Source of the DNA: Salinivirgaceae bacterium
GTDB lineage: Bacteria; Bacteroidota; Bacteroidia; Bacteroidales; SZUA-534
Reading direction: 5' to 3'
Length of the DNA: 62,326 nt
NCBI GenBank assembly: GCA_027858735.1
Contig: JAQICC010000266.1
Span: 1 to 62,326 of the forward strand
Positions within the stretch are counted from its first letter, which is position 1. Every line of letters begins with the position of its first letter. The translations under genes were made by a program, and so were the position numbers. Of this stretch, positions 31,745 through 47,796 are shown in pieces. Below the pieces are notes generated by a model. That model was given only the letters and a program-made list of their open reading frames with translations, was not told the DNA's origin and did no database searches.

Positions 31745-32091
31745 AAAGTAAATTTAGTAACTGCATCCCCATACAGCAAAATTGGTTTTTGAAAATAGTG
31801 AAATATAATGGCTTAAACAACTTAGCTCATATTATCACTGGATAATTGTATTAAAAACAATATAAATATCACTAAAATAATGTGTTTTTATAAACACTAA
31901 AGATGCTAAAATAGCGAATCACAATAATTGCTTTTAATTTATTATTGATTGCTCATTATTTTCATGACTTTTGTTGTAATTAATTCAGCAATAATATTTC
32001 AAATGCAATTGCCCTGATGCTATTGCTATTTTAATGCAATTAGAAAACAACGAAAATAGCCATCTTGTTAACTAAGAATCCATAAAAAAAA

Positions 32092-32111
32092 GGCTCGGAA
32101 TAAACCGAGCC
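32092..32111 (-). terminator. intrinsic terminator after the 3206-aa gene
   Basis: GGCTCGG-AATAAA-CCGAGCC with an A-run on + (U-tail on -). Confidence 0.75.
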
Positions 32112-32136: not shown

Positions 32137-35100
32137 TTATTCAATCACAATTCTTTTCGTTTGAATATTGTTTTCACGCTTAACCTTAATTATGTATACA
32201 CCTTCTGTTAAATATATTTCGGTGCGAGAACTCTGAGCTTTGTTGAAATACTCAATAGCACCTTTAACATTAAATACAGTAATTTCGGTTTGCTCAAACT
32301 TTTCTGTTTCAACATACGCTGTGTTTTTATAAGCAAATATTTTAACATTCTTATTGCTTAAACTTGAAATACCAACATACATTTCGATTTGAATTGGTAC
32401 AATGCATTTCTCAGATATTGAATCACCACTTGTGGCATAAGCCCTATATCTTCCGGGGTTTACTCCTTCAATCGAAATTTCAAGATCTTCAAATGCATCA
32501 ACAACATTGGCGCTTGTACCATCATTGTTATCAACAGCACCTGATAAATCACTTATAGTGGTAACATCAATAGAATCGGCTACTAAATAAACTATAGCAT
32601 TTATTTCGTAGGTCGATTGTGCCACTACCGTTTCACCGGGACCATTAGTCTTACTTAACTGGATTTCCATATCCACTTCTAATCCACGAATTTCGGCAGC
32701 ATTAACACTTCGCTGCGACCATTCTGTTTCATTAGCATTTACGGCATATCCATAATACATGCCCGGCATAATATCAGTAACATCAATTCCCACGATCACG
32801 CCTGCTTCAGCAACAATTGCCTTGCGTGCGTCACCAGAATCGGCTAGTGTAATTAAATCGTTAACTGAAAGTATTATAGCCTGCTCAGGTACCAAATAAA
32901 TAGTACTTCCGGTTGAACCACATGTAGCCTTTACCGTTTGCCCGGCTTCGTTGGCTAAAAGTTGGCCTTTCATTGAAATGGCAATTGGTATAATGTAAGT
33001 CGCTGTATTTGCAGCATCCTGAACCGAATCACCCATAACATTAACAACTTCAGCAACTTCAGCAATAATGGTTGCAAAATCGACTGCAGAACCAAAATCA
33101 GCAACCGTAAGTACTACCTCGTTTGGTGAGACCACGCTCACTGCTTCCGGATTACCTGTTAAGCCAACAGTACCTGAAAGTGTATAATTAGTTGCAACAG
33201 CAGCAGATACTGTATCAACAGCCTGACTGAATATTAACTTAAGCTCTGTATTGCTAACATATACCATGTCTGGTTCAACCATTAAATCATCAGTTGCCAA
33301 CCAGCGCAAGTCACCTAATTGTTTACCATCGTTACCTGCACCTAAAATACTAGCATTTGTTGGTGCATAATTAAAGTTCGCACGATCGTAATAAGCTGGG
33401 TTGTAAACCGTAGTATTACTAACCTGACTCATTCCGTGCATTGCAATGCTTGGTGTTAAGTAAAGGTTGTTATGTGTTAGCTTTGATGAACCATAAGCTA
33501 CTAAAGCAGTATCGGTAGCCACTTGCGATGCTGAATTACTTACAATGCTATTCGACATGCTTAAGTATGAAAGATTATCAGGAGTAATGATCCTTGCTGA
33601 AGGACTATTTACACCTATGCTATCAAATGTACAATGGTCAATTTGTATTGTTGATTTTGTATCGGCTAAAGGAGCTGATACGTTTAATACAGAAGGTACA
33701 TCAACGAAAGTACAATTTGTAATGCGTAAGGAACCAAAATATTCTTTATTAACCGTATTTCTGAAATATATGGCTTGATTGTAAGTATTTTTCACAATAC
33801 AATTGTTGAATACCACACTATCGGCCATAACATTATTTGCCTGACGGAATACATAACCATCGGTAGATTCAACACCTGATGAATTAAGGTTTTGCGTATT
33901 AAAATCATGAATGTAACAGTCATCAAAAACCACAGAATAACCATAGTCAAAATCAACATCTTCACGAACGCGTAAAGCCCAAGTTGAGTTACCTGCAAAA
34001 TCATCATTGGCACCACCATCAAACTCAATACCTTCAATATGAAGTAAACCACCTGGAGGATAATACTCAATTAAGCGCATAAAATGACGTACATCTTCAT
34101 CGCCTACGGCTGGGTTATAGAACAAGACAGGCTTTTCGGCCAAACCTTTTTGTGCGTGTAAATAAACACCACCATAAACTCTAAAGTAGGTTTTGAAATT
34201 ATACACACCACCTGAAGTTGTAAGAATAACTTCGTCACCGGTTGTAATGCTGGCATTGTAAAATGCACTACGCATATCTTCAGCTTGTTCGGCAGTATAA
34301 TAGTATACTCTAGGAATACGCACAGTTACTGCATCAGCAGCAGGATCGGAAATTTGTGAACCTACTACCATGTAGAAATGATATTTACCTGCCTCTAAAC
34401 CTGCTGTTGAAACTTTAAAGTCAACTTCGGCTGTAGCTACTGTATCTTTTGCAGCCAAATTATTTACTACTGCTTCTTCAAGTATTTCAACAGTTAAATT
34501 ATCTGAATTAACATCATCATTTAATAAATAAACATGTCCGCCAATTGATCCCCCCATTACATAAGCATAGCTCCAGTTACCTTCAACATTTGTTGCGGTT
34601 TGTACTTTATTGTTAGCATAAATTGCTGAATTGATATAAACTGGATTTTCACCGCGTAACGAAATATTCGTATCGGAAACGGCATAACCATAGTAGGTTC
34701 CTGTTTGTAAGCCTTCTACTGAAATTTCAACAGCAACATCAGCCAAAGCATTTGCTTTATTACCACGTTTTCCGGTAACAGCACTTTCCAAATCAGCTAT
34801 TGAAGTGTAATCGCCTTCTTTTACAATGTACACAATACCATCAACGCTTGTAGTAACTGATACCAGTTTGCCAACACCATTGGTCACTATTTGCTCGTCG
34901 TACTGAATGTTTAACCAATCAAGTACAACACTTGCATATTGCGATGGAGCTGAAATTACACCTTTGCTATCTAAAACATAAGCATAATAGCTACCGCTAT
35001 AAAGTCCTGTAACTGAAATTTCAACATCGGTATTAGCCGCAACTATAGAAGCTGAATCTCCCTTATTGGCAGCAACAGCAGCATTTAAATCGTCTACAGT

Positions 35101-38100
35101 AGCAACACTTAAACCTTCGCGAATAATGTAAAGCATACCATTTGCAACATTGGCTTGAACCACTATTTTATCGCCTACCAAATTCGTTGTTGTTTGAGGA
35201 TACATAATCGCAATTACACTATCGGCCTTAACATACCAATTTAAGTCACCCACAGTCTCGCCATCGGCACATACATAACTGGTATCGTTTAATAAAGCAA
35301 AGTTGTAATTTGCAGAATCGGCAAATATTGGAACGGTTGTAAAAGTATTTGTTCCTGCATCCGCTGCTAACAATTCAACGTCAAGATAGTTGTAATCAAT
35401 AACATCAACATTTAAGCTATCGCTCACCTGATCGAATAAACTATTGGTTACAGAAATACTTCCTGCAATTCTGTCTTTATCGTAACGGAATATATTACCG
35501 CCAATTTGCGAGAAAGTACAATGGTTAATAGTTAAATCATCACCACCGGCATAAGCACCGCTTGAGCGATAGAATACTACGCCTTCACCTTCTAATTTCA
35601 CAAAGCTTGAGTTAGAAATAGAAATATCGCCATAATCGGCTGTATTGTTATACAAATTGATAACACGTTGCTTACTGTCAGTTACCAAACAATTCTCCAT
35701 AACAACTTTACTACCAGCAGTATTCAGGCGGAAACTACCGTTGCTATTTGTATTGTTATGCGAATAACAATTGCGAATTACTAAATTCGTTTTGCTATCG
35801 GAACGCAATACATTGTTAGGTATACCTGTACAATCAAATTCAATACCATCAATGGTTAAATCAACATCGTCGGTTGCATTACGAACACGCAACATACCAA
35901 ACGAAGCACTTGTACCAGCCGAATATGTAATAACTGGTTTTGCAGCCAGTCCTGGCTTAGCCATTAACACAGCACTCTTACTAAAATCGGGCTTGCTTGG
36001 TAAATCATAAACTCCACCCGAAGTTGAAAGAATATACATATCGTATAAACCGGCTGTGATATCATCTACTAAAGCTTGAACTTCACCGGCTGCATACTCC
36101 TTAAATGGAGAAGTACTGCTTACTACTGCTAGTTTAGCTATACCTTTAGTAGAAATATTCCCTACAGCATCAACGGAATAGGCATAATAAACGCCTACCG
36201 CTAAACCTGTAGTTGAAATATTTACATCGTTAAGTTTGGCAGTTACCGTATCAACAGCACCTTTACCAGCTGCAATAGCTGCATCAAACAAGGCTACAGT
36301 TGGAGCTACAGTATCGGCAATTACACCATCAAGAATAATATAAACCTTACCGCTACTTTCGCTACTTTGAACAGCTACAAACTGATCAGCAGCATCGGAA
36401 GCCGTTTGTGCACTTGCATAAACTTCAGGTGCTCCTTTAATTACAGTTATGGCGCTATCACCTTTTGCTGATAAATTGCCATCACCATCAACTGCATAAG
36501 CGTAATACGTACCTAAAGCAAGGCTATCGGTAGCTACACTAATGTCAGTATCGTTTGCTATTATTGTGGCCGAATCGGCTTTAGAAGCTGCAACAGCTGC
36601 GTTAAGTTCTGCAATTGTTGTTTGCGCTTCGCCGCTTAATACAATATAAACCGTACCAGTTGGCTTATTACTTTGAACAAGAGCTACAGCACCTTTTGCA
36701 TTGGTAACCGTTTGAACCGTATTTATAACAGCAACAGGAATACTTGCATCAAGAATAGTAATGGCTGCACTGCCTTTTACAGAGATGTTTCCTTCACCAT
36801 CAACAGCATAAGCATAATAAGTACCTGCTGCTAATCCTGCAGTTGAAATAGTAACTGAAGTGTTTGCAACAGTAACTGTATCTTTAGCACCTATAGCGGC
36901 AGTAACTGCAGCGTTAAGTTCTGCCAAAGTACTTTGTGCTTCACCATCTAAAATTACATAAATATAACCTGCATCTTTATTACTCATGGCTAGAACTTCC
37001 TGACCAACGGCATTTGTTACCGATTGTTCTTCGCAAACCACCATTACATCCTCAGGTCCTTTTTCGTGCCAACGCGGATCACCAATTGGTGTAGTTCCAT
37101 CGCTACCTAATAAAAAGCCTTGGTTGGTTAAGCTTAAGTCAAGCGTTGCACTGTCTTTATAAACCGGTGCAGTTGTTATAGCGTTTGTTACTACCAATGC
37201 TGAAGGTAAAACTCCACCAAAACCAGCTACATAAGAGTAGTTAATAGAATCGGTTGTACCTGGTGTATTAAACTCAATGGTATCTTTTACCGCTTCAAAA
37301 ATTGAGTTTGTTACTTTAAACGATTCTGTTAAAGTACCTATCTTAAATACATTATCCTCAATATTTATGAAATTACACTGGTCAACAGTAATACTATTGG
37401 CTGTACTACTTGATGCCGTAATCCAATGTATTACAGGATCGTTGGTAATATTAGCGAATGTTGAATTTGTAATTTTAACATCACCAAATAATAAATCGTT
37501 CTTATCTAAACGGATTAATCGTCCGTAACAATCATGTACAAAACAATCATCCATGGTTAAAGCAGTTCCTGCTTTATCTAAACGAACAATACCACTTGAG
37601 GTTGTGAAATTTTTAATCTCACAATTTTTAACAACTGCAGTAGCGCTATCTTTACGTAAGCGAACAACTCCCGCCATTGCTTCAGTCGCAGTACCATCAA
37701 GTATAACACCTTCAAGCTGTAAGGCAAATTTACCATTCTGTATATCGAAAAAGCTACGGTAGGTGCTTGCATTCGCAGCATCAGTAAACATTGGTTTTGC
37801 AGCCAAACCGGCTTTTGCCATAACAGTAATGTCAGATGCAATATCGATATCGGAAGCCACATAGTTACCACCTGAAGTGCTTAATATATACGTATCGTAT
37901 AAGGCAGCTTCAATATCGGCAACTAAAGCGTCAATATCAGTATCGGCATATTCTTTAGAACTAATTGTACTGCTTGTTACAGTAATTTTATTGGCACCTT
38001 TTGCCGATACATTACCAACAGAATCGGTAGCATATGCATAATAAACGCCAACTGCCAAACCTTCGGTTGAAACCGAAATGTTTGTTAAAGATGCAGTTAC

Positions 38101-41100
38101 CGTATCAACCGCACCTTTACCAGCTGCAACAGCAGCTTCAAAAGCTGGAATTGAATCTTGCAACTCGCCTGAAAGTATAATATAAACTTTACCATGATTG
38201 TCGCTACTTTGAACCAAAACGGTTTGACCAGCAGCATCGGTTGCTGACTGCACATCGGCATAAACCTCAGGCGAACCTTTAATTATTGTGATGGCATTGG
38301 TTCCTTTAGCAGAAATATTTCCATCAACGTCAACCGCATAAGCATAGTACGAACCTAAAGCTAAGCTATCGGTTGGCACACTCATATCGGAATCGTTAGC
38401 CGTTACCGTAGCCGAATCGGCTTTATTGGCAGCTATAGCAGCTTTTAATTCTGTAACAGAAGATTGGGCAACACCATCAAGTACAATATAAACAGTACCT
38501 GTTGGCTTGTTGCTTTGAACTAGAGCCACAGCATCTTTTGCATTGCTCACTGTTTGAATTGCATTACTTACTGCAACCGGAATGGCTGCATTTAATACCG
38601 TAATGGCGTTGGTTCCTTTTGCTGAAATGGCATTCGAACCATCAACGGCATAAGCATAATACGTACCCCCAACTAAACCTTCGGAGGATATAGTTTCTAA
38701 TTTATAAGCTTCGGTTACCGTAACTTTAACTCCTTTTGAATCCGCTACTGCAGCATCAAAATCGGCAATAGTAACTTGTGTTTCACCATCAAGTATTATA
38801 TAAATTGAACCAGCTGCTTTGTTACTTTTAACCATAACTTGCTGTCCGGCAGCATTGGTTACCGACTGCACTTCATAAATTGCCAGTACAGACGAAGCTG
38901 CCTGATTGTGCCAGCGTGGGTCACCAATTGGTGTTTTACCAGTGCTTCCCAAAACAAAATCAGGATTTGTTAGGTTAAAATCAAGAGCTGCAGCATCGGT
39001 ATAAACCGGAGCTGTTGTAATTGTATTTTTCAATTTAAAATAGTCAGGTAATTCTTTACCGAAACCTGCTATATATGAATAATTAATAGAATCTGTAGTA
39101 CCTGGAGCGTTAAACTCTGTACTATCTTGAATAAGATCGAAAATTGAATTCGTAATTAAAACAGGTTCAACAACCGAACCTAGTTTAAATACGTTATCCT
39201 TAACATCGTAAAAATTACATTGATCAATGGTTATGTTATTAACCGTGCTACTTGCAGCAGTAACCCATTGAATTATAGGTTCACCAGTGATTTTAGCAAA
39301 GGTTGAATTGCTAATACTTATATCACCAAAAGCTGATGCATTGTTATTAATACGAACAAAACGTCCATGGCAATCATGTACAAAACAGCTATCCATTGTT
39401 AGTGAGGCTCCAGGATTACTTAACCTTAATGCCCCATTACTTGTTGTATAATTGTAAATCTCACATTGTTTAATAACCATACCGCTATTATCACCTCTAG
39501 CTCTAACAACGGCACCCATCGGTATACCATTTGTTGTTGCATCAAACTTTAATCCAATAAGAGTTAACGTGTATGCATCTCCAATATCGAAATATGTTTG
39601 CCATGTTTTTGTATTCTGTGAGGCCTTTATGATTGGCATAGCAGCTAAACCAGCTTTTGCTTTTACCACGATATCGGCTGATAAGTCAATATCTAAAAAC
39701 GAATAAACACCACCCGAAGTACTCAAAATGTATGTTTCATATACAGCCGCTTCCATTTCATTAGCTAGAGTTACAGTATCAACAACTGCATATTCTTTTT
39801 CGGTAATCGTTGTACTTGTTACAACAATTTTATTGCTTCCTTTTGTTGAAAGCGCATCATCGGCATCAACTGCATAAGCATAGTAAACACCTGGTGCTAA
39901 ACCTGTTGTTGAAAGTGCCACATCGGTATTTGCTGAAACAACACTTGCTGAAGCACCTTTATTGGCAGTTACGGCAGCATCTAAGTCAGCAATGGTTGTT
40001 TGCACCTCACCATCAAGAATAATATATACTTTTCCGGCACCTTCACTACTTTGCACATTAACTAGCTGTCCTGCAGCATCGGTTACCCTTTGCGCATCAG
40101 CTGTTACTGATGGTGCCGCATTACTAATGGTAATTGCATTTGTTCCTTTAACCGACATGTCGGTACCTTCAACAGCATAGGCATAATAGGTTCCTACTGC
40201 AATATCGCTTACAGAAATAGCCATATCGGTATTGGCACCAGTTACAGCAACTTTTGCTCCTTTTTTAGCGGCCACTGCAGCATCTAAATCTGCAATAGTA
40301 GCCTGTGTTTCACCATCAAGAATTACATATACAAAACCTGTTGCTTTTGTACTTTGAACAAGTACCTCATCACTTACACCATTTTCTGATGCTTGCACTG
40401 TATTTGACACCACCGGTAGTGGCACATATAGATTAACAGTAATTGCATTGCTTCCTTTTGCAGAAACTACATTGCTACCATCTACCGCATAGCCATAATA
40501 AGTACCAACATCGATACCTGAAGTTGAAACAGCTGTATGTGTAAAAGCTGCTGTTACGCCAGCTTTAGCGCCCTTCAAGGCAGTAACTGCCGCATCAAGT
40601 TCCGTTAAATTACTTTGGGCTTCACCATCAAGAATCATATATACAAAACCAGTAGCTTTGTTACTTTTAAGTTGAGCATTTGAAGTAGAACCGTTATCGA
40701 CAGTGTGTACATCATTATATTCCGCAACAGCAGGTGCTGGCGCTGTCGGATCCCAAAGTGGGTCTCCAATAGGTTTAGCAGCTGAGCCTGTCAATGAACC
40801 CGCATTTGTTAAAGTTAAATCCAAATTGCCGGCATCAACATAAGTTGGCGCCGTTGCTATCGAATTCGTTTCTGTTATATCAGAATCTAAAGTACCTGTA
40901 AGACCTGCAGTATAACAATAATCCATAGTACTTGATGTACCTGCTGTTGCCAATGTAATAGTACCCGTAATGGCATCAAAATTACTGTTGGTAATAGTTA
41001 AATTACCTACAACTGTTCCAAGGTTCATGGCCTTATCGGCAACATTGTAAAAGGTACATTGATCAACAGTAATATTTGTAACTGTACTACTACCAGTGCT

Positions 41101-41757
41101 AACCCAATGCAAAACAGGATCATCGGTAATATTTGCGAAAGTTGAATTCGTTACCGAAATATCTCCCATCGCAACTCCACTATTGTCAATACGTAAAAGT
41201 CGACCATAAGAATCATGTATGTAACTACCATCTACAGTAAGAGCAACTCCAGCATTTGCAAGACGAGCAACTCCATTTGCGGTACTAAAATCATACATCT
41301 CACAATTATTAATAGTAACACTTGCATTATCGCTCCTGGCACGCACTACACCAGACATTGCTTCAGTAGCAGCAGTACCATCAAATTTAATCCCTTCAAC
41401 GGTTAAGGAGAAAGCTCCTTGAATATCGAAGAAATATCTATAGGTTGAAGTATTACCAGTATTCGAAATTATTGGTTTCGCAGCCAAAAATTCCTTGGCT
41501 TTTACTATAATATTACTTGCTAAGTCGACATCAGACATGTCATAAATTCCACCTGAGCTAGACAGAATGTACTCATCATAAGTACCCCCTTCAATATCGG
41601 TTATTAAGTCGGCCACCTCTGAATCGGCATACTCTTTTGATGTTGCAAAACTCGGTAGGGCTAAACCCAAAAAGAGCGTGCAAAACACCACCAGATTCAA
41701 AGCTGTTTTTAACAGATTGAATCTCATTTTCAATAAATTGCAATGTGTTTTTTTCAT
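32137..41757 (-). CDS. giant T9SS-type exported repeat protein: five DUF4957/DUF5123-like beta-helix modules interleaved with 14 Ig-like repeats
   Basis: signal peptide; module starts (KEYA..YILSTSGG) near 41640, 39800, 37960, 36105, 34310, each ending in GDP(R/L)W or GDL(N/R)W; repeats VQS.K..G.VYIILDG..YYAYAVD; CTD-like tail GVYIIKV..KRIVIE. Confidence 0.8.
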   Translation of the reverse strand: MKKTHCNLLKMRFNLLKTALNLVVFCTLFLGLALPSFATSKEYADSEVADLITDIEGGTYDEYILSSSGGIYDMSDVDLASNIIVKAKEFLAAKPIISNTGNTSTYRYFFDIQGAFSLTVEGIKFDGTAATEAMSGVVRARSDNASVTINNCEMYDFSTANGVARLANAGVALTVDGSYIHDSYGRLLRIDNSGVAMGDISVTNSTFANITDDPVLHWVSTGSSTVTNITVDQCTFYNVADKAMNLGTVVGNLTITNSNFDAITGTITLATAGTSSTMDYCYTAGLTGTLDSDITETNSIATAPTYVDAGNLDLTLTNAGSLTGSAAKPIGDPLWDPTAPAPAVAEYNDVHTVDNGSTSNAQLKSNKATGFVYMILDGEAQSNLTELDAAVTALKGAKAGVTAAFTHTAVSTSGIDVGTYYGYAVDGSNVVSAKGSNAITVNLYVPLPVVSNTVQASENGVSDEVLVQSTKATGFVYVILDGETQATIADLDAAVAAKKGAKVAVTGANTDMAISVSDIAVGTYYAYAVEGTDMSVKGTNAITISNAAPSVTADAQRVTDAAGQLVNVQSSEGAGKVYIILDGEVQTTIADLDAAVTANKGASASVVSANTDVALSTTGLAPGVYYAYAVDADDALSTKGSNKIVVTSTTITEKEYAVVDTVTLANEMEAAVYETYILSTSGGVYSFLDIDLSADIVVKAKAGLAAMPIIKASQNTKTWQTYFDIGDAYTLTLIGLKFDATTNGIPMGAVVRARGDNSGMVIKQCEIYNYTTSNGALRLSNPGASLTMDSCFVHDCHGRFVRINNNASAFGDISISNSTFAKITGEPIIQWVTAASSTVNNITIDQCNFYDVKDNVFKLGSVVEPVLITNSIFDLIQDSTEFNAPGTTDSINYSYIAGFGKELPDYFKLKNTITTAPVYTDAAALDFNLTNPDFVLGSTGKTPIGDPRWHNQAASSVLAIYEVQSVTNAAGQQVMVKSNKAAGSIYIILDGETQVTIADFDAAVADSKGVKVTVTEAYKLETISSEGLVGGTYYAYAVDGSNAISAKGTNAITVLNAAIPVAVSNAIQTVSNAKDAVALVQSNKPTGTVYIVLDGVAQSSVTELKAAIAANKADSATVTANDSDMSVPTDSLALGSYYAYAVDVDGNISAKGTNAITIIKGSPEVYADVQSATDAAGQTVLVQSSDNHGKVYIILSGELQDSIPAFEAAVAAGKGAVDTVTASLTNISVSTEGLAVGVYYAYATDSVGNVSAKGANKITVTSSTISSKEYADTDIDALVADIEAALYDTYILSTSGGNYVASDIDIASDITVMAKAGLAAKPMFTDAANASTYRSFFDIQNGKFALQLEGVILDGTATEAMAGVVRLRKDSATAVVKNCEIKNFTTSSGIVRLDKAGTALTMDDCFVHDCYGRLIRLDKNDLLFGDVKITNSTFANITNDPVIHWITASSSTANSITVDQCNFINIEDNVFKIGTLTESFKVTNSIFEAVKDTIEFNTPGTTDSINYSYVAGFGGVLPSALVVTNAITTAPVYKDSATLDLSLTNQGFLLGSDGTTPIGDPRWHEKGPEDVMVVCEEQSVTNAVGQEVLAMSNKDAGYIYVILDGEAQSTLAELNAAVTAAIGAKDTVTVANTSVTISTAGLAAGTYYAYAVDGEGNISVKGSAAITILDASIPVAVINTVQTVTNAKGAVALVQSNKPTGTVYIVLSGEAQTTIAELNAAVAASKADSATIIANDTDISVATDSLALGTYYAYAVDGDGNLSAKGDSAITVIKGAPEVYASAQTASDAADQFVAVQSSESSGKVYIILDGVIADTVAPTVALFDAAIAAGKGAVDTVTAKLNDVNISTTGLAVGVYYAYSVDAVGNISTKGIAKLAVVSSTSPFKEYAAGEVQALVDDITAGLYDMYILSTSGGVYDLPSKPDFSKSAVLMAKPGLAAKPVITYSAGTSASFGMLRVRNATDDVDLTIDGIEFDCTGIPNNVLRSDSKTNLVIRNCYSHNNTNSNGSFRLNTAGSKVVMENCLVTDSKQRVINLYNNTADYGDISISNSSFVKLEGEGVVFYRSSGAYAGGDDLTINHCTFSQIGGNIFRYDKDRIAGSISVTNSLFDQVSDSLNVDVIDYNYLDVELLAADAGTNTFTTVPIFADSANYNFALLNDTSYVCADGETVGDLNWYVKADSVIAIMYPQTTTNLVGDKIVVQANVANGMLYIIREGLSVATVDDLNAAVAANKGDSASIVAANTDVEISVTGLYSGSYYAYVLDSKGVISAPSQYASVVLDWLNIQYDEQIVTNGVGKLVSVTTSVDGIVYIVKEGDYTSIADLESAVTGKRGNKANALADVAVEISVEGLQTGTYYGYAVSDTNISLRGENPVYINSAIYANNKVQTATNVEGNWSYAYVMGGSIGGHVYLLNDDVNSDNLTVEILEEAVVNNLAAKDTVATAEVDFKVSTAGLEAGKYHFYMVVGSQISDPAADAVTVRIPRVYYYTAEQAEDMRSAFYNASITTGDEVILTTSGGVYNFKTYFRVYGGVYLHAQKGLAEKPVLFYNPAVGDEDVRHFMRLIEYYPPGGLLHIEGIEFDGGANDDFAGNSTWALRVREDVDFDYGYSVVFDDCYIHDFNTQNLNSSGVESTDGYVFRQANNVMADSVVFNNCIVKNTYNQAIYFRNTVNKEYFGSLRITNCTFVDVPSVLNVSAPLADTKSTIQIDHCTFDSIGVNSPSARIITPDNLSYLSMSNSIVSNSASQVATDTALVAYGSSKLTHNNLYLTPSIAMHGMSQVSNTTVYNPAYYDRANFNYAPTNASILGAGNDGKQLGDLRWLATDDLMVEPDMVYVSNTELKLIFSQAVDTVSAAVATNYTLSGTVGLTGNPEAVSVVSPNEVVLTVADFGSAVDFATIIAEVAEVVNVMGDSVQDAANTATYIIPIAISMKGQLLANEAGQTVKATCGSTGSTIYLVPEQAIILSVNDLITLADSGDARKAIVAEAGVIVGIDVTDIMPGMYYGYAVNANETEWSQRSVNAAEIRGLEVDMEIQLSKTNGPGETVVAQSTYEINAIVYLVADSIDVTTISDLSGAVDNNDGTSANVVDAFEDLEISIEGVNPGRYRAYATSGDSISEKCIVPIQIEMYVGISSLSNKNVKIFAYKNTAYVETEKFEQTEITVFNVKGAIEYFNKAQSSRTEIYLTEGVYIIKVKRENNIQTKRIVIE

Positions 41758-41913
41758 ATAATTTAGTTTAAGTTAATTTGTTTATTAAGCAATACACTAG
41801 CTGTTTAAGGGGATTTTACAAGCCCTTAAATCAATATTTTATTCACTTATATTTAGTTAGTTTTTATCTACATAATCCCTATTTATTTGTGTCAAAAAGT
41901 GTTTGTTAAATCT

Positions 41914-44355
41914 TTATAATTCTACCTTTAAAAAAGTTGCTTTCACCTTAGCCGATTTTACACTAATTATGGCATTCCCCTTTTTAAGTATTATTTTCAT
42001 AAATGCTCGACCATTGTACAATTGAATTTTTCGTGAACCGTCCCATGTTCCCAAATCATCAATAAGCTCGGCATTTCCTGCAGTTTCAAATTCAACCATT
42101 TCCTTTGAATCGGCACAATACACGCCATTTTTATCATAAACTTTAGCACAAACAGTAAGAACGTTTCCTTCGCGTAAAACCTCCTCTATTTTCAGTTCAC
42201 TTTCCGCTCCCCATTCTGCTGTTTGATACACTTGTGTAATTTCATCAACCACTTCAACTTTACCTTGCTTTGCTATAACTTTTAAATGGTTTTCACCTTC
42301 TTTAAATTGCACTTTCCAACGTAAACCGGCAGCAGGATAATCTTGAGAATTTCTAGTTCTTTTACCTAAACTTTCACCATTGAAAAATAACTCAGCTTCG
42401 CTACAATTTGAATATACCTTAATCAATTTATCCTCCCCTTTTTTACCCCATCGCGTTTCCCAAGTATGGCCATAAATATGAGCCATAGGTTTGCTTGTCC
42501 AATACGACTGAAATACATAATACGATTCTTTAGGAGTAAGATCGCGTTGCACCACGCCTTTTTGATTTACATAAGGCACCGGATTTTCAGGACGCAATGG
42601 AGTAGAAAAATCTTTAAAAGGCCAGTAAGCAGTTCCTGTAAGCCACTCCATGTTTTCCTGTTCCTTCAAATGCCAGTCTATTAGATTACAGGCATAAGTT
42701 TCAGACCAATCGCCATCTTTCGAAACACGAGGATCGCCACCTGACATCAGGAAATCACCAGCACGCTCATCAGCATCACCTTCAATAATAGATACTAAAC
42801 CTTTGTCGGGATTTTCAGAATGACGCCCAGCATGGTGACTGGCTCCCCACTCAACATGCAGAAAGTGATCAACGTCCATGGCTTCTTCATAACTCACTTC
42901 TTGATATTTGGTAAATTTACCCCGATACCAACCTGCCCAAATGGAAGGTGAGTACACATCAATAATATCTTTACAGAAATTGCAACGACGAATAGCCGTA
43001 AGGCGTTCGGGATCTTTCTTGTGTGACAAGTCGTTTAATTCTGACATAAAGCCTCTGATTTTCTCCTCATCAAATTCGGTAAAATCACCAGGCCAATCGT
43101 TCTCATTACCCAAGCCCCAAACCAATACAGAAACATGGTTTTGATGCTGATCAATCATATTCACCAACATTCGGCGTGCTTGTTCTTTGTATACTTCTCC
43201 ACCTAAACCTCCACGGCACCAGGGGATTTCTTCCCATACAAAAATACCTAATGAATCACACAACTCTAGTACCAAACGTGATTGCTGATAATGACCTAAG
43301 CGGATAAAGTTTATACCAATATCTTTCATCATTTGCATTTCTTGACGAATAAGATTATCGGTCATGGCAGCCGCCATACCAGCATGATCTTCGTGGCGAT
43401 GTGTACCTCGTAATAAAAGACGTTTGCCGTTTACCATTAAAGGTCCTTTTTTAATAAACTCAGTATGGTTAAAACCAACTTTTTGCGTTGTATTATGTGT
43501 TTGACCGTTTACGGTTACACTTACATTTAATGTATATAAATAAGGATTTTCGGGATGCCATAATACGGGTTTGCTAAGGCTTAGCTTTGCAATTTCAAGC
43601 TCACCCTTCCATGTTTTTTTGCTTGTATTATATTTACTAACTACCTTACCTTGTGCATCACTAATTGTTAATTCAAGTTGAGCGTCTGCTATTGAAGGCA
43701 TTTCATTTTTTAATACTGCACTTATTACAATATCAACCTTTTTAAAGTTCTCATCAAGCTTATAGTTAAACTGAACTTGTTCAAGTGAAACGGGTGGCAA
43801 ATACACCAAATTTACATGACGATATAATCCTCCATAAACATTAAAATCGCTTAAGTCTGACGGTATCATCTCAGCATCGCGCGAATTGTCGCAGCGTATA
43901 GCAATGGGTATTAATGAATCTGCCAAAGAAGAGCTTTGCTTGTATTCCTGAATGGCATCGCTTATGTCAATGCTAAATTCATCGTATCCACCAACATGAG
44001 ATCCTATTTTCTTTGTAAGCAAGTAAATATCAGTCTTTTGTCCAGCACCTTCAAAATGCAATATGGTTCTACCATTTTCGTAAGGATTAGTAATTGCAAT
44101 ATGGTTTCGATACCAACCAGGTCCTTGATAATAGGCAACATCGGGATCAACCGCATCAAAAGCATTAAAACAATGGGGCATATTAACAGGGACCCACACA
44201 GGCAATTTACTCTGACTTTCCGGTCGAAATGCCTCCCATGGCGATCCTAGATCACCTTTCACATAATCCCATCCGTTTGTTAAGCGTGTGCTTTTTTGAG
44301 CCATTACATTAAAACTCAAAAAGCTTATTATTAATCCTAAAAATAGTTTATTCAT
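41914..44355 (-). CDS. GH2 glycoside hydrolase (beta-galactosidase/beta-glucuronidase clan), Sec signal only
   Basis: LHFEGAG, HVGGYDEF, YGGLYRHV, GTHRHED, RLGHY, WEEIPW, WGLGNE (acid/base), HVEWG (nucleophile). Confidence 0.92.
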   Translation of the reverse strand: MNKLFLGLIISFLSFNVMAQKSTRLTNGWDYVKGDLGSPWEAFRPESQSKLPVWVPVNMPHCFNAFDAVDPDVAYYQGPGWYRNHIAITNPYENGRTILHFEGAGQKTDIYLLTKKIGSHVGGYDEFSIDISDAIQEYKQSSSLADSLIPIAIRCDNSRDAEMIPSDLSDFNVYGGLYRHVNLVYLPPVSLEQVQFNYKLDENFKKVDIVISAVLKNEMPSIADAQLELTISDAQGKVVSKYNTSKKTWKGELEIAKLSLSKPVLWHPENPYLYTLNVSVTVNGQTHNTTQKVGFNHTEFIKKGPLMVNGKRLLLRGTHRHEDHAGMAAAMTDNLIRQEMQMMKDIGINFIRLGHYQQSRLVLELCDSLGIFVWEEIPWCRGGLGGEVYKEQARRMLVNMIDQHQNHVSVLVWGLGNENDWPGDFTEFDEEKIRGFMSELNDLSHKKDPERLTAIRRCNFCKDIIDVYSPSIWAGWYRGKFTKYQEVSYEEAMDVDHFLHVEWGASHHAGRHSENPDKGLVSIIEGDADERAGDFLMSGGDPRVSKDGDWSETYACNLIDWHLKEQENMEWLTGTAYWPFKDFSTPLRPENPVPYVNQKGVVQRDLTPKESYYVFQSYWTSKPMAHIYGHTWETRWGKKGEDKLIKVYSNCSEAELFFNGESLGKRTRNSQDYPAAGLRWKVQFKEGENHLKVIAKQGKVEVVDEITQVYQTAEWGAESELKIEEVLREGNVLTVCAKVYDKNGVYCADSKEMVEFETAGNAELIDDLGTWDGSRKIQLYNGRAFMKIILKKGNAIISVKSAKVKATFLKVEL

Positions 44356-44370
44356 TGTTACAATTTTATT

Positions 44371-47300
44371 TTATTCTGTTAAGTATATTTTTTTTGTTAT
44401 GCTCATATTATCATAGCTCACCTTTGCAAAGTATAAAGACTCTTGTAAACCAAGTTCAATGGTGTTTTTGCTTTCAAAAATGCGTTGCCTATGAATTAAC
44501 TTACCCCCGCTATTATAAATATGAACACTTGCTTTATTAAAATTTACATTGGAAAAATTCACATATACTGTACTATTAAAACAATACACGCTGGGTTTTG
44601 CTTGCTCACTTTGATTGACAGAAACAATACTTTTTATAAAGGCTGACTTTGAACTTTTTTCAGATATTCTCCCTTCGGTATCGGCTGCAAAAGCGTAATA
44701 ATATCCTTCTTTTAAATTAAAAGTAGATATCTCAATAGTATCATTTGCATTAACATTTCTAACTACAGTGCCTAATCCATTGCTAAGCGCTTGTTCCATA
44801 TCCTTTACATTTTTGGGTACCTGAGTAATAAACAATAGAAAAACATCACCCTTTTTGCTACTTTTTGCAATAACAAAATCCGTTTCGCCACTTGATACTT
44901 CTTGCGATGCCATAGTAACTATCGGTCGTAAATCGGGTACTTGAACGCTAGTTTGGCTTATTCCATTAATTAATGCCCCATTGTTTGCTTTTACATATTG
45001 CACCTCTATAATAATCAGTGAATTATAAGGTAAAAATCCTATGGAACTAAAATTAAGGGATACGGTCACTGAATCAACTTCATTTACTATTTTTGGGCTA
45101 CCTGTTAATCCGGCACTGCCATTAGCTATGTAATTGGTGTTTTTTAGTGCTGAAACCCTTTCAAATGGTTGATTAAACTTTAATTCAACTGTTGAATCAT
45201 TAATATAGAAACCCTGATTCCCCTGCAATCCAAAATCGGTATAAATACCCCTATCTGATTTTTGTGCTAAATAGAGTGATAACGGGTTTAACCCATCAAC
45301 ATTAGCACCATCCCATTCACCACGAGGACGGTCACCAAATGTATCATCATTAACATAGCTGCCTTTAAATCCGATACAATAGTTTTTAGCCGACACCCAT
45401 GGATTTTGGCAAATTGCTGTTTTTCCTTTACAATTCCACATTACCTGATTAACACCGGCCCAACCATGACCAGTCCCATAATTTGAACGGTCACGCACAT
45501 TCAGCTCATTATCTGAGGTAACTACATCGTACAGCGTTCCTACTGCCCACCGGTGATGTGGACCAATATCATTACTTGCTTTGGTGGCAGTACAATAACT
45601 AAATACATTTGGACCACAAACTCGTGATCCGGTTACATAATCGTGCCGACCTTCGCTTGCCGAGCAATTTGAAATTAAACTGGTTTGACCATTGCAATTA
45701 AATGAGTATCGACGTCCACCAGTAACCACTGATTTTGGACTAAGTGATGTGCAATTTGTAACGGTAATATACCTTGCATACGAGCTAATATTTGCACAGG
45801 AATAGGCAAAGTATTTAGCTGTTATATTTTTAGCCCAACAATGTTCTGCTCTGTTAAAATAAACTGCATTCCATGCATGATTTTCATCGGTTTCACTTGC
45901 ATAAACTGATTGCAGTTGCATATTCTCAATGCCACAATTTTGAATGCGCTCGTTAAAAGTACATTTGTAAACTTTTCGCGAATCGTTATAATTAACATCC
46001 AAAGCCATAACAATAGGATTGTAAAAAAATATACTGTCTCCTGTTGATCCTGAAGCAATGCGTTTCACTTCTCGTTCAAAATTAAAAGCATAATCGGATG
46101 CTACCCATTGGTTAACATCACCATCATCAGGAATTTGATCCATTTTAAGATCGTTAACCCAAGCTTTATTAAACTGTTGGTAAATACAAATATGATCGCT
46201 TGTGCTAAATTCATGACCTTTGGGTACTATAACATACTTTGCTCCTACAGGAATATACGATGGTACAATGTTTTGAACACTACTGGCTATTTTGTTTAAT
46301 GATCCGCTTGCTGCACCAACCTTTATTAAGGATGAACCTTCGCTTTTACTTGTTGCAATTAAAATAGTTCCATCATTCCCTTGCCCTTCGCCTCTTAAAA
46401 CAATTCCTTGTGAACGAAGAGAAATATCGGATGAAAATTCATAAGTACCTGCCTTAATTAAAATGGTCCCTTTAAAACCTTCGCTATTTAGGTTTGTATT
46501 TTGAGCTACCGAATCAATAATATGTTGAATATAGCTTGTAGCATCTCCCTCTATTGGACTAACACTTGCCAATACCGCTAATTCAGGTAATTTTTTTTCA
46601 CCTCGTCTATAACCCACATGGCTAAAATCGGGAATTACATCGCCCTTTTTATCGGCTCGGTATTTTAATTTTCCGTTTTGATTATATTTTAAAAAATACG
46701 ATTCCCATTTTCCATTATCATCAGGTGTTGGAACTACCCAAACCCCTTGATTTTCATAGTTATTAGGATTATCACCGATATCAATCGAATCTTCGGGTTC
46801 AGCATTATATTCCCATGGCAAAATTCCTATATTATCACCATCGTTGGCCTTAGAAAAAAGTGACTCGTTGGTAACAAAATAGTTGGCATCGTATTTAGGA
46901 TTATAGTATAAACAGCTTTGTCCTGTTGAACTTCCTAAATCCGCACAACGATAAAAGTCGCAATAATCTAGTTTAGCTCCAGCAATTAATTTAAAAGGAT
47001 TGGCACTTTTTGAATTCGAAAAAACAGAGTTTTCAATGCTAAGATCGCTAGCATTTTCTATACCTATAATTGGAAAAGAATCTGCTACAGAAATACTATC
47101 AAAAACACAGTGATTAATAGAAATTGACCCGTTGGTGAGGTTAGCATTTTCAGAAAAACAAATAACTTCTTTTGCGTAGTTTGCAAAAACGCAACTCTTA
47201 AATTCAAGAGACGCAAAAGAAGCTTCTTTGTTAAACTCACTTACTACTAACTCTATTGATCTACTATTATGAAATAAACAATTATTAAAAAATATTTTAT

Positions 47301-47796
47301 CTGCAAATGTACCAGCTAAGCATTTAACGACACATTCTGGTATATTTTTGAATTCACAATTTTGCATAAATAAGTTATACTGGCTTGGAGCTATATTTTC
47401 AGAACCTATTTCAATGGCATTTGCGATAGAAACTTCGTTCGCACTATTTGAAAAAATAAGACTAATTACCTCAACCGTGCAGTTATTTAATATTTGAAAC
47501 ACCGACTTATTAACAGAATCGGCTGTTTGAAGAATTGGTTTATCAACCATATCCTCTCCCATTATGGTAATACTTGCGGATAATAAAACTTGGTTTTCAA
47601 AACAATAATTTGCTCCTGATGATGTAAGAATAAAAATATCACCATCAGAAGCATTCGATATTGCAATAGCAAGATCGTTTGCATAAAATCCATTAATGGG
47701 TGCAGTAAACCTGTAGGTATTAGCCAATGAGGTTTGAGCTAATGCTATAGCAAATAATGGTACAAATATTTTAAATAGCTTTATAATTATTCTCAT
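44371..47796 (-). CDS. T9SS-type exported protein: DUF4957-like beta-helix + unclassified pectate-lyase-3-like beta-helix + Ig domains + CTD
   Basis: N-module GDIFILTSSGANY..KPIL..NIGILPW; central IPDFSHVGY, GRRYSF, GRHDYVTG, GPHHRWAVG, GHGWAG; Ig modules shared with the giant protein. Confidence 0.65.
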   Translation of the reverse strand: MRIIIKLFKIFVPLFAIALAQTSLANTYRFTAPINGFYANDLAIAISNASDGDIFILTSSGANYCFENQVLLSASITIMGEDMVDKPILQTADSVNKSVFQILNNCTVEVISLIFSNSANEVSIANAIEIGSENIAPSQYNLFMQNCEFKNIPECVVKCLAGTFADKIFFNNCLFHNSRSIELVVSEFNKEASFASLEFKSCVFANYAKEVICFSENANLTNGSISINHCVFDSISVADSFPIIGIENASDLSIENSVFSNSKSANPFKLIAGAKLDYCDFYRCADLGSSTGQSCLYYNPKYDANYFVTNESLFSKANDGDNIGILPWEYNAEPEDSIDIGDNPNNYENQGVWVVPTPDDNGKWESYFLKYNQNGKLKYRADKKGDVIPDFSHVGYRRGEKKLPELAVLASVSPIEGDATSYIQHIIDSVAQNTNLNSEGFKGTILIKAGTYEFSSDISLRSQGIVLRGEGQGNDGTILIATSKSEGSSLIKVGAASGSLNKIASSVQNIVPSYIPVGAKYVIVPKGHEFSTSDHICIYQQFNKAWVNDLKMDQIPDDGDVNQWVASDYAFNFEREVKRIASGSTGDSIFFYNPIVMALDVNYNDSRKVYKCTFNERIQNCGIENMQLQSVYASETDENHAWNAVYFNRAEHCWAKNITAKYFAYSCANISSYARYITVTNCTSLSPKSVVTGGRRYSFNCNGQTSLISNCSASEGRHDYVTGSRVCGPNVFSYCTATKASNDIGPHHRWAVGTLYDVVTSDNELNVRDRSNYGTGHGWAGVNQVMWNCKGKTAICQNPWVSAKNYCIGFKGSYVNDDTFGDRPRGEWDGANVDGLNPLSLYLAQKSDRGIYTDFGLQGNQGFYINDSTVELKFNQPFERVSALKNTNYIANGSAGLTGSPKIVNEVDSVTVSLNFSSIGFLPYNSLIIIEVQYVKANNGALINGISQTSVQVPDLRPIVTMASQEVSSGETDFVIAKSSKKGDVFLLFITQVPKNVKDMEQALSNGLGTVVRNVNANDTIEISTFNLKEGYYYAFAADTEGRISEKSSKSAFIKSIVSVNQSEQAKPSVYCFNSTVYVNFSNVNFNKASVHIYNSGGKLIHRQRIFESKNTIELGLQESLYFAKVSYDNMSITKKIYLTE

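What the first reader, a model, noticed from the sequence alone, without database searches (positions are those of the whole stretch)
32137..41757. 3206-aa exported protein with a hierarchical super-repeat: (beta-helix + 3 Ig) x4, beta-helix, Ig tail
Seen: module starts are spaced about 1840, 1840, 1855 and 1795 bp. Each of the first four beta-helix modules is followed by exactly three ~95-aa repeats whose identities are position-specific (1st, 2nd, 3rd), showing duplication of a whole ~613-aa unit. The fifth module is followed by a distinct Ig-like domain and two more repeats (14 in total). No GH/PL motif, cohesin or RTX repeat is recognisable. Inference: a long multivalent polysaccharide-binding filament or scaffold holding the cell or its enzymes on an insoluble substrate, co-regulated with GH2.
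Basis: partly seen in the sequence, partly recalled or inferred. Interest (0 to 1): 0.75.

Follow-up and report, generated by a model that had tools for sequence, protein, structure and literature searches.

The report
Giant multi-module secreted sugar-binding surface protein
A 3206-residue protein exported by the Bacteroidota type IX secretion system strings together five non-catalytic beta-helix modules, related to the polyguluronate-binding accessory domain of PL6 alginate lyases, and 14 copies of an unannotated Ig-like domain. It most likely acts as a long multivalent tether for acidic polysaccharides, which makes it an unusually large member of an uncharacterised but recurrent protein family, not a new kind of system.

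Summary
Window 32137..41757 (minus strand) is one intact 3206-aa ORF. It has a signal peptide, four units of beta-helix plus three ~100-aa repeats, a fifth beta-helix, a Big_5-like Ig domain, two more repeats and a T9SS type A sorting domain. Module spacings are 1839, 1842, 1854 and 1794 bp.

Each beta-helix is a Pfam DUF4957+DUF5123 module. As a profile, the modules match only the C-terminal non-catalytic beta-helix of the two-domain PL6 alginate lyase BcAlyPL6 (E 4e-22). A homologous PL6 CTD, that of BoPL6, is published as inactive and weakly polyguluronate-binding.

The repeat is a confidently predicted Ig-like sandwich with one helix. It has no Pfam family and no close solved relative, yet it occurs in 674 protein clusters.

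The nearest ortholog has two units instead of four, in the same gene order. Related proteins have multiplied similar units independently.

Best reading (about 0.55): a non-catalytic, avidity-based binder of acidic polysaccharide, co-transcribed with a paralogous putative enzyme and GH2. Nothing has been shown experimentally. It is a new variant of a known kind, of moderate interest.

The parts
41644..41757 (-). N-terminal Sec signal peptide (residues 1-38, predicted cleavage after SFA)
   Evidence: Read directly from the translation: a basic n-region, the hydrophobic stretch ALNLVVFCTLFLGLALPSFA, then TSKEYA. The ortholog P0002 has the same layout. No predictor was run.
40723..41637 (-). Beta-helix module 1 (residues 41-345)
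   Evidence: Pfam DUF5123 E 1.1e-7 and Beta_helix E 2.8e-5. Local BH HMM.
39817..40728 (-). Repeats R1-R3 (residues 344-647), Ig-like ~100-aa domains
   Evidence: Local REP HMM. Alignment A1.
38881..39798 (-). Beta-helix module 2 (residues 654-959)
   Evidence: DUF5123 38.8 bits and DUF4957 33.2 bits, both above their cut-offs. AF2 model pLDDT 88 shows a right-handed beta-helix. Best beta-helix fold match is 7DMK.
37975..38889 (-). Repeats R4-R6 (residues 957-1261)
   Evidence: The AF2 model of the unit shows three beta-sandwiches with one helix each. A single repeat (R5) is predicted at pLDDT 97.7.
37039..37956 (-). Beta-helix module 3 (residues 1268-1573)
   Evidence: DUF5123 36.2 bits..
36121..37047 (-). 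Repeats R7-R9 (residues 1571-1879)
   Evidence: R8 is 75% identical to R5 and R9 is 62% identical to R6.
35206..36102 (-). Beta-helix module 4 (residues 1886-2184), orthologous to module 2 of P0002
   Evidence: DUF5123 E 1e-5 and DUF4957 E 5.5e-5. In the tree, W_M4 pairs with H_M2 at 100/99.
34318..35217 (-). Repeats R10-R12 (residues 2181-2480), divergent, each orthologous to one repeat of P0002 unit B
33271..34314 (-). Beta-helix module 5 (residues 2482-2829), a distinct longer subtype
   Evidence: DUF5123 best stretch at residues 2704-2819; 38.4 bits. A separate M5-type clade also holds the neighbour's beta-helix.
32983..33282 (-). Big_5-like bacterial Ig domain (residues 2826-2925)
   Evidence: This copy has no Pfam hit of its own. 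Homologous copies found with an HMM built from this copy and its P0002 ortholog hit PF13205 Big_5, E 8.5e-5 to 0.012, one of them at the gathering score.
32383..32985 (-). Repeats R13-R14 (residues 2925-3125)
   Evidence: They are orthologous to the last two repeats of P0002.
32140..32370 (-). T9SS type A C-terminal sorting domain (about residues 3130-3206)
   Evidence: TIGR04183 at residues 3149-3205, 24.8 bits against a cut-off of 23. PF18962 E 2.3e-5.
32084..32111 (-). Intrinsic terminator directly after the stop codon (GGCTCGG-TTTATT-CCGAGCC followed by T8)
41914..44355 (-). GH2 gene immediately upstream (156-bp gap), probably in the same transcription unit
   Evidence: Pfam GH2 N, middle and TIM-barrel domains. 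No terminator-like site in the gap. The order is conserved in L001.
44371..47796 (-). Paralog P0158 (1141 aa): M5-type beta-helix, a conserved ~500-aa unknown domain, a Big_5-like Ig domain, one repeat and a T9SS CTD. It is the first gene of the putative operon.

Best explanation
The gene encodes a non-catalytic carrier of glycan-binding modules.

Proposed mechanism:
- It is exported by the Sec pathway and then across the outer membrane by the type IX secretion system, through its type A C-terminal domain.
- It either stays attached to the cell surface or is released close to it.
- Five parallel beta-helix modules descend from the same domain as the accessory C-terminal beta-helix of two-domain PL6 alginate lyases. 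Each offers a weak, extended binding face for an acidic (uronate-containing) polysaccharide.
- Triplets of Ig-like domains hold the modules apart, so the protein could reach roughly 85-90 nm if extended (my estimate).
- Single modules of this kind bind only at millimolar affinity, so multiplying them gives avidity for a polymer or gel. This would keep the cell, its T9SS-secreted lyases and hydrolases, and its TonB-dependent transporters on the substrate.

Shown here: the architecture, the homology, the secretion signal, the conserved gene order and the variation in unit number.

Inferred: binding itself, the ligand, surface retention, co-transcription with the upstream paralog and GH2, and the avidity rationale.
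For: - Architecture: 5 BH modules, 14 REP domains, 1 IG domain and a CTD.
- T9SS type A CTD above the curated cut-off.
- A profile of the modules matches residues 454-729 of 7DMK BcAlyPL6, its non-catalytic C-terminal domain, at E 4e-22. This is the only real PDB hit. It is also the best beta-helix fold match.
- PMC12992946: the homologous BoPL6 CTD has no lyase activity on polyG, polyM or polyMG, and binds polyguluronate with Kd,app of about 1.4 mM.
- DUF4957/DUF5123 genes of B. thetaiotaomicron (BT1026; one in BT4109-14) lie next to TonB-dependent receptors in pectin loci.
- No GH or PL catalytic family is found in the protein.
- Between orthologs the beta-helices (62-69% identity) are no more conserved than the Ig-like repeats (51-64%). 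In the neighbouring paralog, between the same two genomes, the central putative catalytic domain is 66% identical against 37-49% for its flanks.
- Basic residues are conserved across 48 family modules at R125 (83%) and R146 (81%). H193 (81%) and R101 (62%) are conserved too. R125 and H193 are shared with the PL6 CTD.
- The locus encodes PL14, a PL5-type alginate lyase, GH88, GH2, GH8 and two hybrid two-component sensors.
- The ortholog P0002 has 2 units instead of 4 in the same gene order, next to a PL5-type lyase. Related proteins multiplied their units independently. This fits selection on valency or length rather than on a fixed active site.
Against: - No binding or localisation experiment exists for any member of this family.
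- The protein is strongly acidic (pI 4.3, every module pI 4.0-4.7). That is awkward for binding a polyanion unless cations bridge the two, although acidic proteomes are usual in saline habitats.
- The acidic DEST loop, which matters functionally in PL6 CTDs, is not conserved (alignment).
- Conserved Arg and His residues could also belong to an unrecognised active site.
- The Ig-like repeat also occurs in unrelated extracellular proteins of other phyla, so it says nothing about the ligand.
- Type A CTD proteins are not always retained on the surface.
- The substrate of the locus is not identified.
Confidence: 0.55

Rival explanations
1. It is a multi-headed enzyme. Each DUF4957/DUF5123 beta-helix would be an active lyase or hydrolase of a family not yet recognised, so the protein carries five catalytic heads on one chain.
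For: - The parallel beta-helix is the fold of the PL1, 3, 6, 9 and 31 lyases and of GH28.
- Arg and His positions are conserved across 48 modules.
- The gene lies in a locus full of lyases.
- Distant relatives also lie beside GH2 and GH28 genes.
Against: - Homology is to the accessory PL6 domain, not the catalytic one. For BoPL6 that domain was inactive on three alginate substrates.
- No catalytic Pfam or NCBIfam family matches.
- There is no conserved acidic cluster for a Ca2+ site.
- The modules are no more conserved than the spacer domains between orthologs, unlike the neighbour's central domain.
Confidence: 0.12
2. It is a general adhesin or biofilm-matrix protein. It would be a long stalk for attachment to surfaces or to other cells, with no specific role in polysaccharide capture. 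The beta-helices would be structural or would bind non-glycan targets.
For: - Tandem Ig-like arrays match giant adhesins and stalks (GhpA, SiiE, fibronectin) in the fold search.
- The repeat occurs in many unrelated extracellular proteins across phyla.
- The gene is absent from the four other species of the genus and from the rest of the family searched, as accessory adhesins often are.
Against: - The gene order with GH2, a paralog carrying a putative enzyme domain and a hybrid two-component sensor is conserved in the only ortholog locus.
- A shared exact 15-mer lies upstream of the operon and of a TonB-dependent transporter.
- The beta-helix family is tied to uronate-polysaccharide loci and to PL6 lyases.
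Confidence: 0.2
3. It is a docking scaffold. The PL6-CTD-like modules would bind, and perhaps tune, separately secreted catalytic beta-helix domains in trans, assembling a multi-enzyme complex on one chain.
For: The isolated BoPL6 CTD binds its catalytic NTD in trans (Kd 6.9 uM) and changes its specificity and mode of action. The locus encodes several T9SS-secreted beta-helix-containing enzymes.
Against: - The genome has no PL6 catalytic domain (PF14592).
- The DEST loop that mediates NTD binding is not conserved.
- CTD-NTD pairing was enzyme-specific even between two Bacteroides PL6s.
- No cohesin- or dockerin-like pair was found.
Confidence: 0.07
4. It is an assembly artefact or a decaying gene. 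The repeat number would be inflated by misassembly of a metagenome bin.
For: The genome is a 452-contig metagenome bin.
Against: - The units are only 50-67% identical in DNA.
- The frame stays open for 9.6 kb.
- Contigs from three samples tile the gene and bridge all unit junctions with no differences.
- The ortholog and the wider family show the same kind of architecture.
Confidence: 0.02

Closest known systems
C-terminal domain (CTD) of two-domain PL6 alginate lyases (BcAlyPL6 PDB 7DMK, AlyGC, BoPL6)
   Same: Both are homologous ~300-residue parallel beta-helices (profile E 4e-22 over residues 454-729 of 7DMK; best beta-helix fold match). The CTD is non-catalytic and binds polyguluronate weakly (PMC12992946). 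The basic positions R125 and H193 are shared.
   Different: - Here the domain is not fused to a PL6 catalytic domain, and the genome has none.
- It occurs five times in one chain.
- The DEST loop that contacts the active site is absent.
- The protein is a T9SS cargo.
Pfam DUF4957/DUF5123 proteins of Bacteroides polysaccharide utilisation loci (for example BT1026 and a gene in BT4109-14 of B. thetaiotaomicron)
   Same: They belong to the same Pfam families and are encoded beside TonB-dependent transporters in loci for uronate-rich polysaccharides.
   Different: From my own knowledge, not checked here, the Bacteroides proteins are single-module proteins of about 500 aa. This protein has five modules, 15 Ig-like domains and a T9SS sorting domain, and is not adjacent to a SusC/SusD pair.
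Uncharacterised T9SS family BH / Big_5 / REP / CTD found here (P0002, P0011-P0017, P0019, P0021, P0028, P0045, P0057)
   Same: The domain vocabulary and order are the same. Super-repeats of whole units recur, for example P0011 (3179 aa with five BH modules) and P0013 (two identical-type units).
   Different: The window protein uses a BH+REP3 unit without Big_5. It has the most repeats (14) among the 150 best-scoring proteins examined. The duplications are lineage-specific.
Surface glycan-binding proteins of Bacteroidota (SusE/F-like, e.g. B. ovatus MLG SGBP-B, PDB 6E57)
   Same: Both are extended chains of Ig-like domains presenting glycan-binding sites outside the cell. 6E57 appears among the fold matches to the repeat array.
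   Different: SGBPs are lipoproteins encoded next to SusC/D, and their binding sites lie in beta-sandwich domains. Here there is no lipoprotein signal, export is by T9SS, and the presumed binding modules are beta-helices.
Giant T9SS or type I secreted stalk adhesins (Aureispira GhpA, Salmonella SiiE)
   Same: Both are long arrays of Ig-like domains. These are the top Foldseek matches for the three-repeat segment (E 5e-9 to 1e-6).
   Different: The similarity is at fold level only (12-16% identity, TM 0.12-0.14 over the unit). Those proteins have no beta-helix modules, and no hook or RTX elements are present here.

Membership tests
Pfam DUF5123 (PF17161) / DUF4957 (PF16318) beta-helix | Score above the Pfam gathering threshold | tested here: met
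   For the whole protein, DUF5123 scores 98.3 bits against a cut-off of 35.1, in 4 stretches. Tested singly, M2 scores 38.8 and M3 36.2 (above), M5 34.9 (38.4), M1 33.4 and M4 27.1 (below). DUF4957 scores 33.2 against 30.8 for M2, and the other modules fall below.
CAZy PL6 polysaccharide lyase | Catalytic N-terminal beta-helix (Pfam Chondroitinas_B, PF14592) with the Lys/Arg and Ca2+ site | tested here: not met
   There is no PF14592 hit in the protein or anywhere in the genome. The PDB profile match covers only residues 454-729 of 7DMK, its C-terminal domain.
PL6 C-terminal accessory domain | Sequence homology to the CTD of two-domain PL6 enzymes | tested here: met
   hmmsearch of profile A2 against the PDB gives 7DMK at E 4.3e-22, query positions 31-289 to chain residues 454-729. 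The neighbour's beta-helix also matches, at E 6.7e-18.
PL6 C-terminal accessory domain | Conserved acidic DEST loop that contacts the catalytic domain | tested here: not met
   In the HMM alignment the loop NDesTSG of 7DMK aligns to shorter, non-acidic loops: AASST in M2, and TGSST, ASSST, SGAYAGG and PLADT in the other four modules.
T9SS type A cargo | C-terminal sorting domain TIGR04183/PF18962 at the extreme C-terminus, plus an N-terminal signal peptide | tested here: met
   TIGR04183 scores 24.8 bits against a cut-off of 23 at residues 3149-3205. PF18962 gives E 2.3e-5. The signal peptide was judged by inspection. The T9SS machinery genes of the genome were not searched. At least nine other ORFs in the window carry the same CTD.
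SusE/F-type surface glycan-binding lipoprotein | Lipoprotein signal and a position directly downstream of a SusC/SusD pair | tested here: not met
   No canonical lipobox is present (VVFC followed by a long hydrophobic stretch and an SFA cleavage site; inspection). The neighbours are GH2 and a histidine kinase, not SusC/D.
Cellulosome-type scaffoldin | Cohesin modules, with dockerin partners | tested here: not met
   No cohesin or dockerin Pfam hit at E up to 0.1. One weak fold hit to a cohesin has probability 0.38.
RTX / type I secreted giant adhesin | RTX nonapeptide repeats and a C-terminal T1SS signal | tested here: not met
   No RTX family in the Pfam scan. The C-terminus is a T9SS CTD.
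Immunoglobulin-like beta-sandwich (the ~100-aa repeat) | Predicted fold matches Ig-like domains, or the repeat belongs to a curated Ig-like family | tested here: inconclusive
   AF2 gives pLDDT 97.7, with seven strands plus one helix. The Foldseek PDB hits are all Ig-like or FN3-like but weak (best E 0.028, TM 0.4-0.59). There is no Pfam family: only chance-level hits to TadZ-like_ARD (38.7 bits summed over the repeats, no single stretch significant), VirK and the PL4 CBM-like domain. So it is Ig-like at fold level and a member of no described family.
Pfam Big_5 (PF13205) for the single Ig domain after module 5 | Score above the gathering threshold | tested here: inconclusive
   The window copy has no hit. 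Five of six homologous copies from family members hit Big_5 at E 8.5e-5 to 0.012, one at 23.7 bits against a cut-off of 23.6.

The most novel reading that the evidence does not exclude
The five PL6-CTD-like beta-helices could be docking and tuning sites, not merely binders. They would recruit separately secreted catalytic beta-helix domains in trans, as the isolated BoPL6 CTD does for its own catalytic domain. Candidates are the conserved central domain of the neighbouring paralog and the beta-helix head of the GH8 protein. The result would be a T9SS-exported multi-enzyme 'lyasome' on one chain, a Bacteroidota counterpart of the cellulosome built on a different pairing principle.
Probability: 0.06. 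Interest if true: 0.85.

Novelty: new variant of a known kind. Interest (0 to 1): 0.45.

Why it matters
If the reading is right, it shows a way for bacteria to obtain strong attachment to gel-forming acidic polysaccharides. They multiply a weakly binding lyase-derived beta-helix on a long Ig-like stalk, instead of evolving a high-affinity module.

It also gives a testable function to two widespread Pfam domains of unknown function (DUF4957 and DUF5123) that sit in Bacteroides pectin loci, by linking them to the recently characterised PL6 accessory domain.

It defines an unannotated ~100-aa Ig-like domain present in at least 674 protein clusters across several phyla.

The family is also a clean example of repeated, lineage-specific duplication of whole multi-domain units (2 against 4 units between orthologs). 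That is useful for studying how the length and valency of surface proteins evolve.

Tried and rejected
- A sequence search of the whole protein against the PDB found nothing. Only the profile of aligned units found 7DMK.
- The repeat profile's PDB hits to the designed WD40 proteins Tako8 and Ika8 are rejected. Each stretch scores only about 10 bits, and the total is inflated by repetition in both partners.
- The Pfam hits to TadZ-like_ARD and VirK and to the PL4 CBM-like domain are rejected. None has a significant single stretch, VirK and CBM-like score below their cut-offs, and TadZ-like_ARD exceeds its cut-off only as a sum over the repeats.
- The word-based homolog search found a single giant relative and six ~450-aa beta-helix+CTD proteins.
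- A scan of JGI metagenome contigs with the C-terminal 1321 residues found no relative.
- No relative exists in 40 genomes of the same genus, family and order, apart from CTD-only matches.
- A literature search for the two DUF names and their Pfam and InterPro accessions gave one incidental mention.
- CBM96 was considered as a possible beta-helix alginate-binding module and dropped. The full-text term count of its paper shows no 'beta-helix'.
- The PL6 trans-partner idea was weakened by the absence of PF14592 in the genome.
- No -7 box (TAnnTTTG) and no copy of the locus 15-mer lie in the 156-bp gap before the gene. An own promoter is therefore not supported, but it is not excluded.
The claim that the basic residues form one surface stripe therefore rests on sequence register and DSSP strand periodicity only.
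Full report
**The observation**

Window 32137..41757 holds one uninterrupted minus-strand ORF of 3206 codons. Landmark motifs and local HMMs place five beta-helix modules at residues 41-345, 654-959, 1268-1573, 1886-2184 and 2482-2829. There are 14 copies of a ~100-residue repeat, three after each of the first four modules and two near the C-terminus. One different ~100-residue domain lies at 2826-2925.

**How far the position-specific pattern holds**

The 'position-specific' pattern is correct for the three N-terminal units and not beyond.
- In a maximum-likelihood tree of the 14 repeats plus the 8 repeats of the ortholog, position 3 of units 1-3 forms a clade with support 98/99.
- Position 2 of units 2-3 forms a clade with support 99/99.
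- The position-1 repeats, together with repeat 2 of unit 1, are unresolved.
- Each repeat of unit 4 and of the tail pairs one-to-one with a repeat of the ortholog, not with units 1-3.

**Is the sequence real?**

The four units are 50-67% identical in DNA, too divergent for assembly collapse or expansion. Contigs from three saline-spring metagenome samples of one study tile the gene with no differences. Contigs from at least two samples bridge each unit junction. These samples are not fully independent of the assembly.

**What the parts are**

- *N-terminus.* It reads as a Sec signal peptide (inspection).
- *C-terminus.* The last ~75 residues are a T9SS type A sorting domain (TIGR04183, 24.8 bits against a cut-off of 23; PF18962). 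At least nine other ORFs in the window carry the same domain.
- *Beta-helix modules.* Every module hits Pfam DUF5123, and four of them also hit DUF4957. For the whole protein DUF5123 scores 98.3 bits against a cut-off of 35.1.
- *Structure of one unit.* An AlphaFold2 model of unit 2 (pLDDT 88) shows a right-handed parallel beta-helix followed by three beta-sandwiches, each with one helix.
- *The repeat.* On its own it is predicted with pLDDT 97.7. It gives only weak, generic Ig-like and FN3-like fold matches (best E 0.028). It has no credible Pfam match. It is therefore an Ig-like domain of an undescribed family.
- *The single domain after module 5.* It is a divergent Big_5-type bacterial Ig domain. 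This rests on its homologs in related proteins, not on the window copy itself.

**The key homology**

A profile of the aligned units has one real match in the PDB. It is residues 454-729 of BcAlyPL6 (7DMK), at E 4e-22. The same chain is the best beta-helix fold match.

That stretch is the C-terminal, non-catalytic beta-helix of a two-domain PL6 alginate lyase. A 2026 study of the homologous BoPL6 (PMC12992946) reports the following:
- The isolated CTD has no activity on polyG, polyM or polyMG.
- It binds polyguluronate weakly (Kd,app about 1.4 mM).
- It binds its own catalytic domain in trans (Kd 6.9 uM) through an acidic DEST loop.

In the window protein the loop aligned to DEST is shorter and not acidic. 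No PL6 catalytic domain exists in the protein or in the 6-Mb genome.

The only literature mention of the two DUF names places B. thetaiotaomicron members (BT1026 and a gene in BT4109-14) next to TonB-dependent receptors in pectin loci. Those are also uronate polysaccharides.

**Relatives and evolution**

Among 5.8 billion proteins, the word-indexed search found one giant relative, P0002 (1975 aa, 61% identity). It has the same plan but two BH+REP3 units instead of four. Its locus has the same order: hybrid two-component sensor, 1146-aa T9SS protein, GH2, giant. A PL5-type lyase follows.

The four other species of the genus and 36 further genomes of the family and order lack the gene.

An exhaustive profile search with the repeat found 674 representative proteins at E <= 1e-3. 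I mapped my three HMMs onto the best 150. The mapping shows a coherent, unnamed family whose minimal form is BH, Big_5-like, REP2 and CTD (about 720 aa: P0045, P0057). Whole units have been multiplied in different ways:
- P0013 has two such units.
- P0012 and P0014 have BH-BH-Big_5-REP2 followed by an M5-type unit.
- P0017 has BH-BH-REP3 plus the M5 tail.
- P0011 (3179 aa) has five BH modules in units that also carry an extra small domain.

A tree of beta-helix modules separates an M5 type from an M1-M4 type. It places the duplicated modules of each protein together (P0017 100/100, P0013 100/100, W_M2+W_M3 81/88). The expansions are therefore lineage-specific.

The repeat alone also occurs in a clostridial-type ChW/Big_2 protein and in FG-GAP/RTX-like proteins. 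It is a general extracellular building block, not a marker of the ligand.

**Binder or enzyme?**

No catalytic family is detectable. The homologous solved domain is an accessory domain. Across 48 family modules there is no conserved acidic cluster that could hold a catalytic Ca2+.

What is conserved is a set of basic positions: R125 83%, R146 81%, H193 81% and R101 62%. By strand periodicity in the model (strands at about 96-100, 124-126, 148-150, 176-178 and 204-209) several of these positions appear to lie on one sheet. I could not verify this in three dimensions.

Between the two orthologs the beta-helices are 62-69% identical and the Ig-like repeats 51-64%. In the neighbouring gene, between the same two genomes, the central unknown domain is 66% identical against 37-49% for its beta-helix, Ig and repeat parts. 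The giant's modules thus lack the extra constraint that a catalytic core shows next door.

Against a simple binding model, the whole protein and every module are acidic (pI 4.0-4.7). Binding of a polyanion would need local basic patches or bridging cations. The saline habitat may explain the overall acidity.

**Context and expression**

On the minus strand the order is as follows:
1. A hybrid two-component sensor (48205-52311).
2. P0158 (44371-47796).
3. GH2 (41914-44355), after a 15-bp gap.
4. The giant, after a 156-bp gap.
5. A strong intrinsic terminator (32084-32111).

No terminator-like site lies between GH2 and the giant.

The exact 15-mer ATTTGCAACAAATAT occurs twice in the window. One copy is upstream of P0158 (48069-48083) and one is upstream of a TonB-dependent transporter (10719-10733). 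Looser matches are at chance level.

The rest of the window encodes a PL14 lyase, a PL5-type alginate lyase, GH88, and a GH8 fused to a beta-helix. It also encodes a second hybrid sensor and two transporter/T9SS-protein pairs.

This fits a locus for an acidic polysaccharide, with the giant as the last gene of an operon. No RNA data were available, because only DNA metagenomes hold the sequence.

**Conclusion**

The most likely function is a T9SS-exported, non-catalytic, multivalent binder of an acidic polysaccharide. Weak lyase-derived beta-helix modules would gain avidity by being repeated along an Ig-like stalk. I estimate about 85-90 nm if extended, from 5 x ~6 nm plus 15 x ~3.8 nm. I give this reading about 0.55.

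The rivals are a general adhesin (0.2), a multi-headed enzyme of an unrecognised family (0.12), a docking scaffold for secreted enzymes (0.07) and an artefact (0.02).

It is not categorically new. It is the largest example seen here of an uncharacterised but recurrent family, and a new variant of the known theme of surface glycan-binding proteins. The useful by-products are the link between DUF4957/DUF5123 and the PL6 accessory domain, and an undescribed Ig-like domain family.

Noticed in passing
window 44371-47796 (-): The neighbour P0158 (1141 aa) is built from the same parts as the giant: an M5-type beta-helix that also matches the PL6 CTD at E 6.7e-18, a Big_5-like Ig domain, one repeat and a T9SS CTD. 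It carries an extra ~500-residue central domain with no Pfam, NCBIfam or PDB sequence match. That domain is the best-conserved part against its ortholog (66% against 37-49%). It is a candidate new catalytic domain.
   Followed up: partly
window 7678-10395 + 6076-7653 and 22567-25605 + 20984-22531 (-): Two SusC-like TonB-dependent transporters are each followed by a ~520-aa protein with a T9SS sorting domain and no SusD family hit. This is an unusual pairing for a Bacteroidota polysaccharide locus.
   Followed up: partly
window 48069-48083 and 10719-10733 (-): The exact 15-mer ATTTGCAACAAATAT occurs upstream of the P0158/GH2/giant operon and upstream of the first transporter gene. Similar TTTGCAACA-type words lie upstream of the 281-aa ORF at 52440-53285, which also has a TACTTTTG -7 box 59 nt before its start. 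This may be the operator of the locus regulators.
   Followed up: partly
window 41804-41830 (-): A hairpin with an 8-bp stem (TTTAAGGG / CCCTTAAA) and an 11-nt loop, without a T tail, lies in the 156-bp gap between GH2 and the giant gene. Its role is unknown.
   Followed up: no
P0010, P0025, P0027, P0029 (proteins): The same ~100-aa Ig-like repeat occurs in tandem arrays in proteins of quite different make-up. Examples are ChW plus Big_2, FG-GAP/VCBS-like with an RTX-like end, and putative cell-wall-binding repeats. In all, 674 representative clusters have it, and no Pfam model covers it.
   Followed up: partly
P0011 (3179 aa): A protein from another organism has independently built a super-repeat with five beta-helix modules. 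Its unit is BH, Big_5-like, a small CarboxypepD_reg-like-looking domain and one repeat. It ends with the same two repeats and CTD.
   Followed up: partly
G000 contig C72:32097-32393 (+), locus L033: The genome has only one other DUF5123-bearing ORF (1054 aa). Its architecture and neighbourhood were not examined.
   Followed up: no
window 13238-17803 (-): A 1521-aa T9SS protein combines an N-terminal beta-helix, GH8, Big_2, CBM35-like and F5/8-type-C modules. With the PL14 and PL5 genes, it suggests a mixed uronate and glucan substrate.
   Followed up: no
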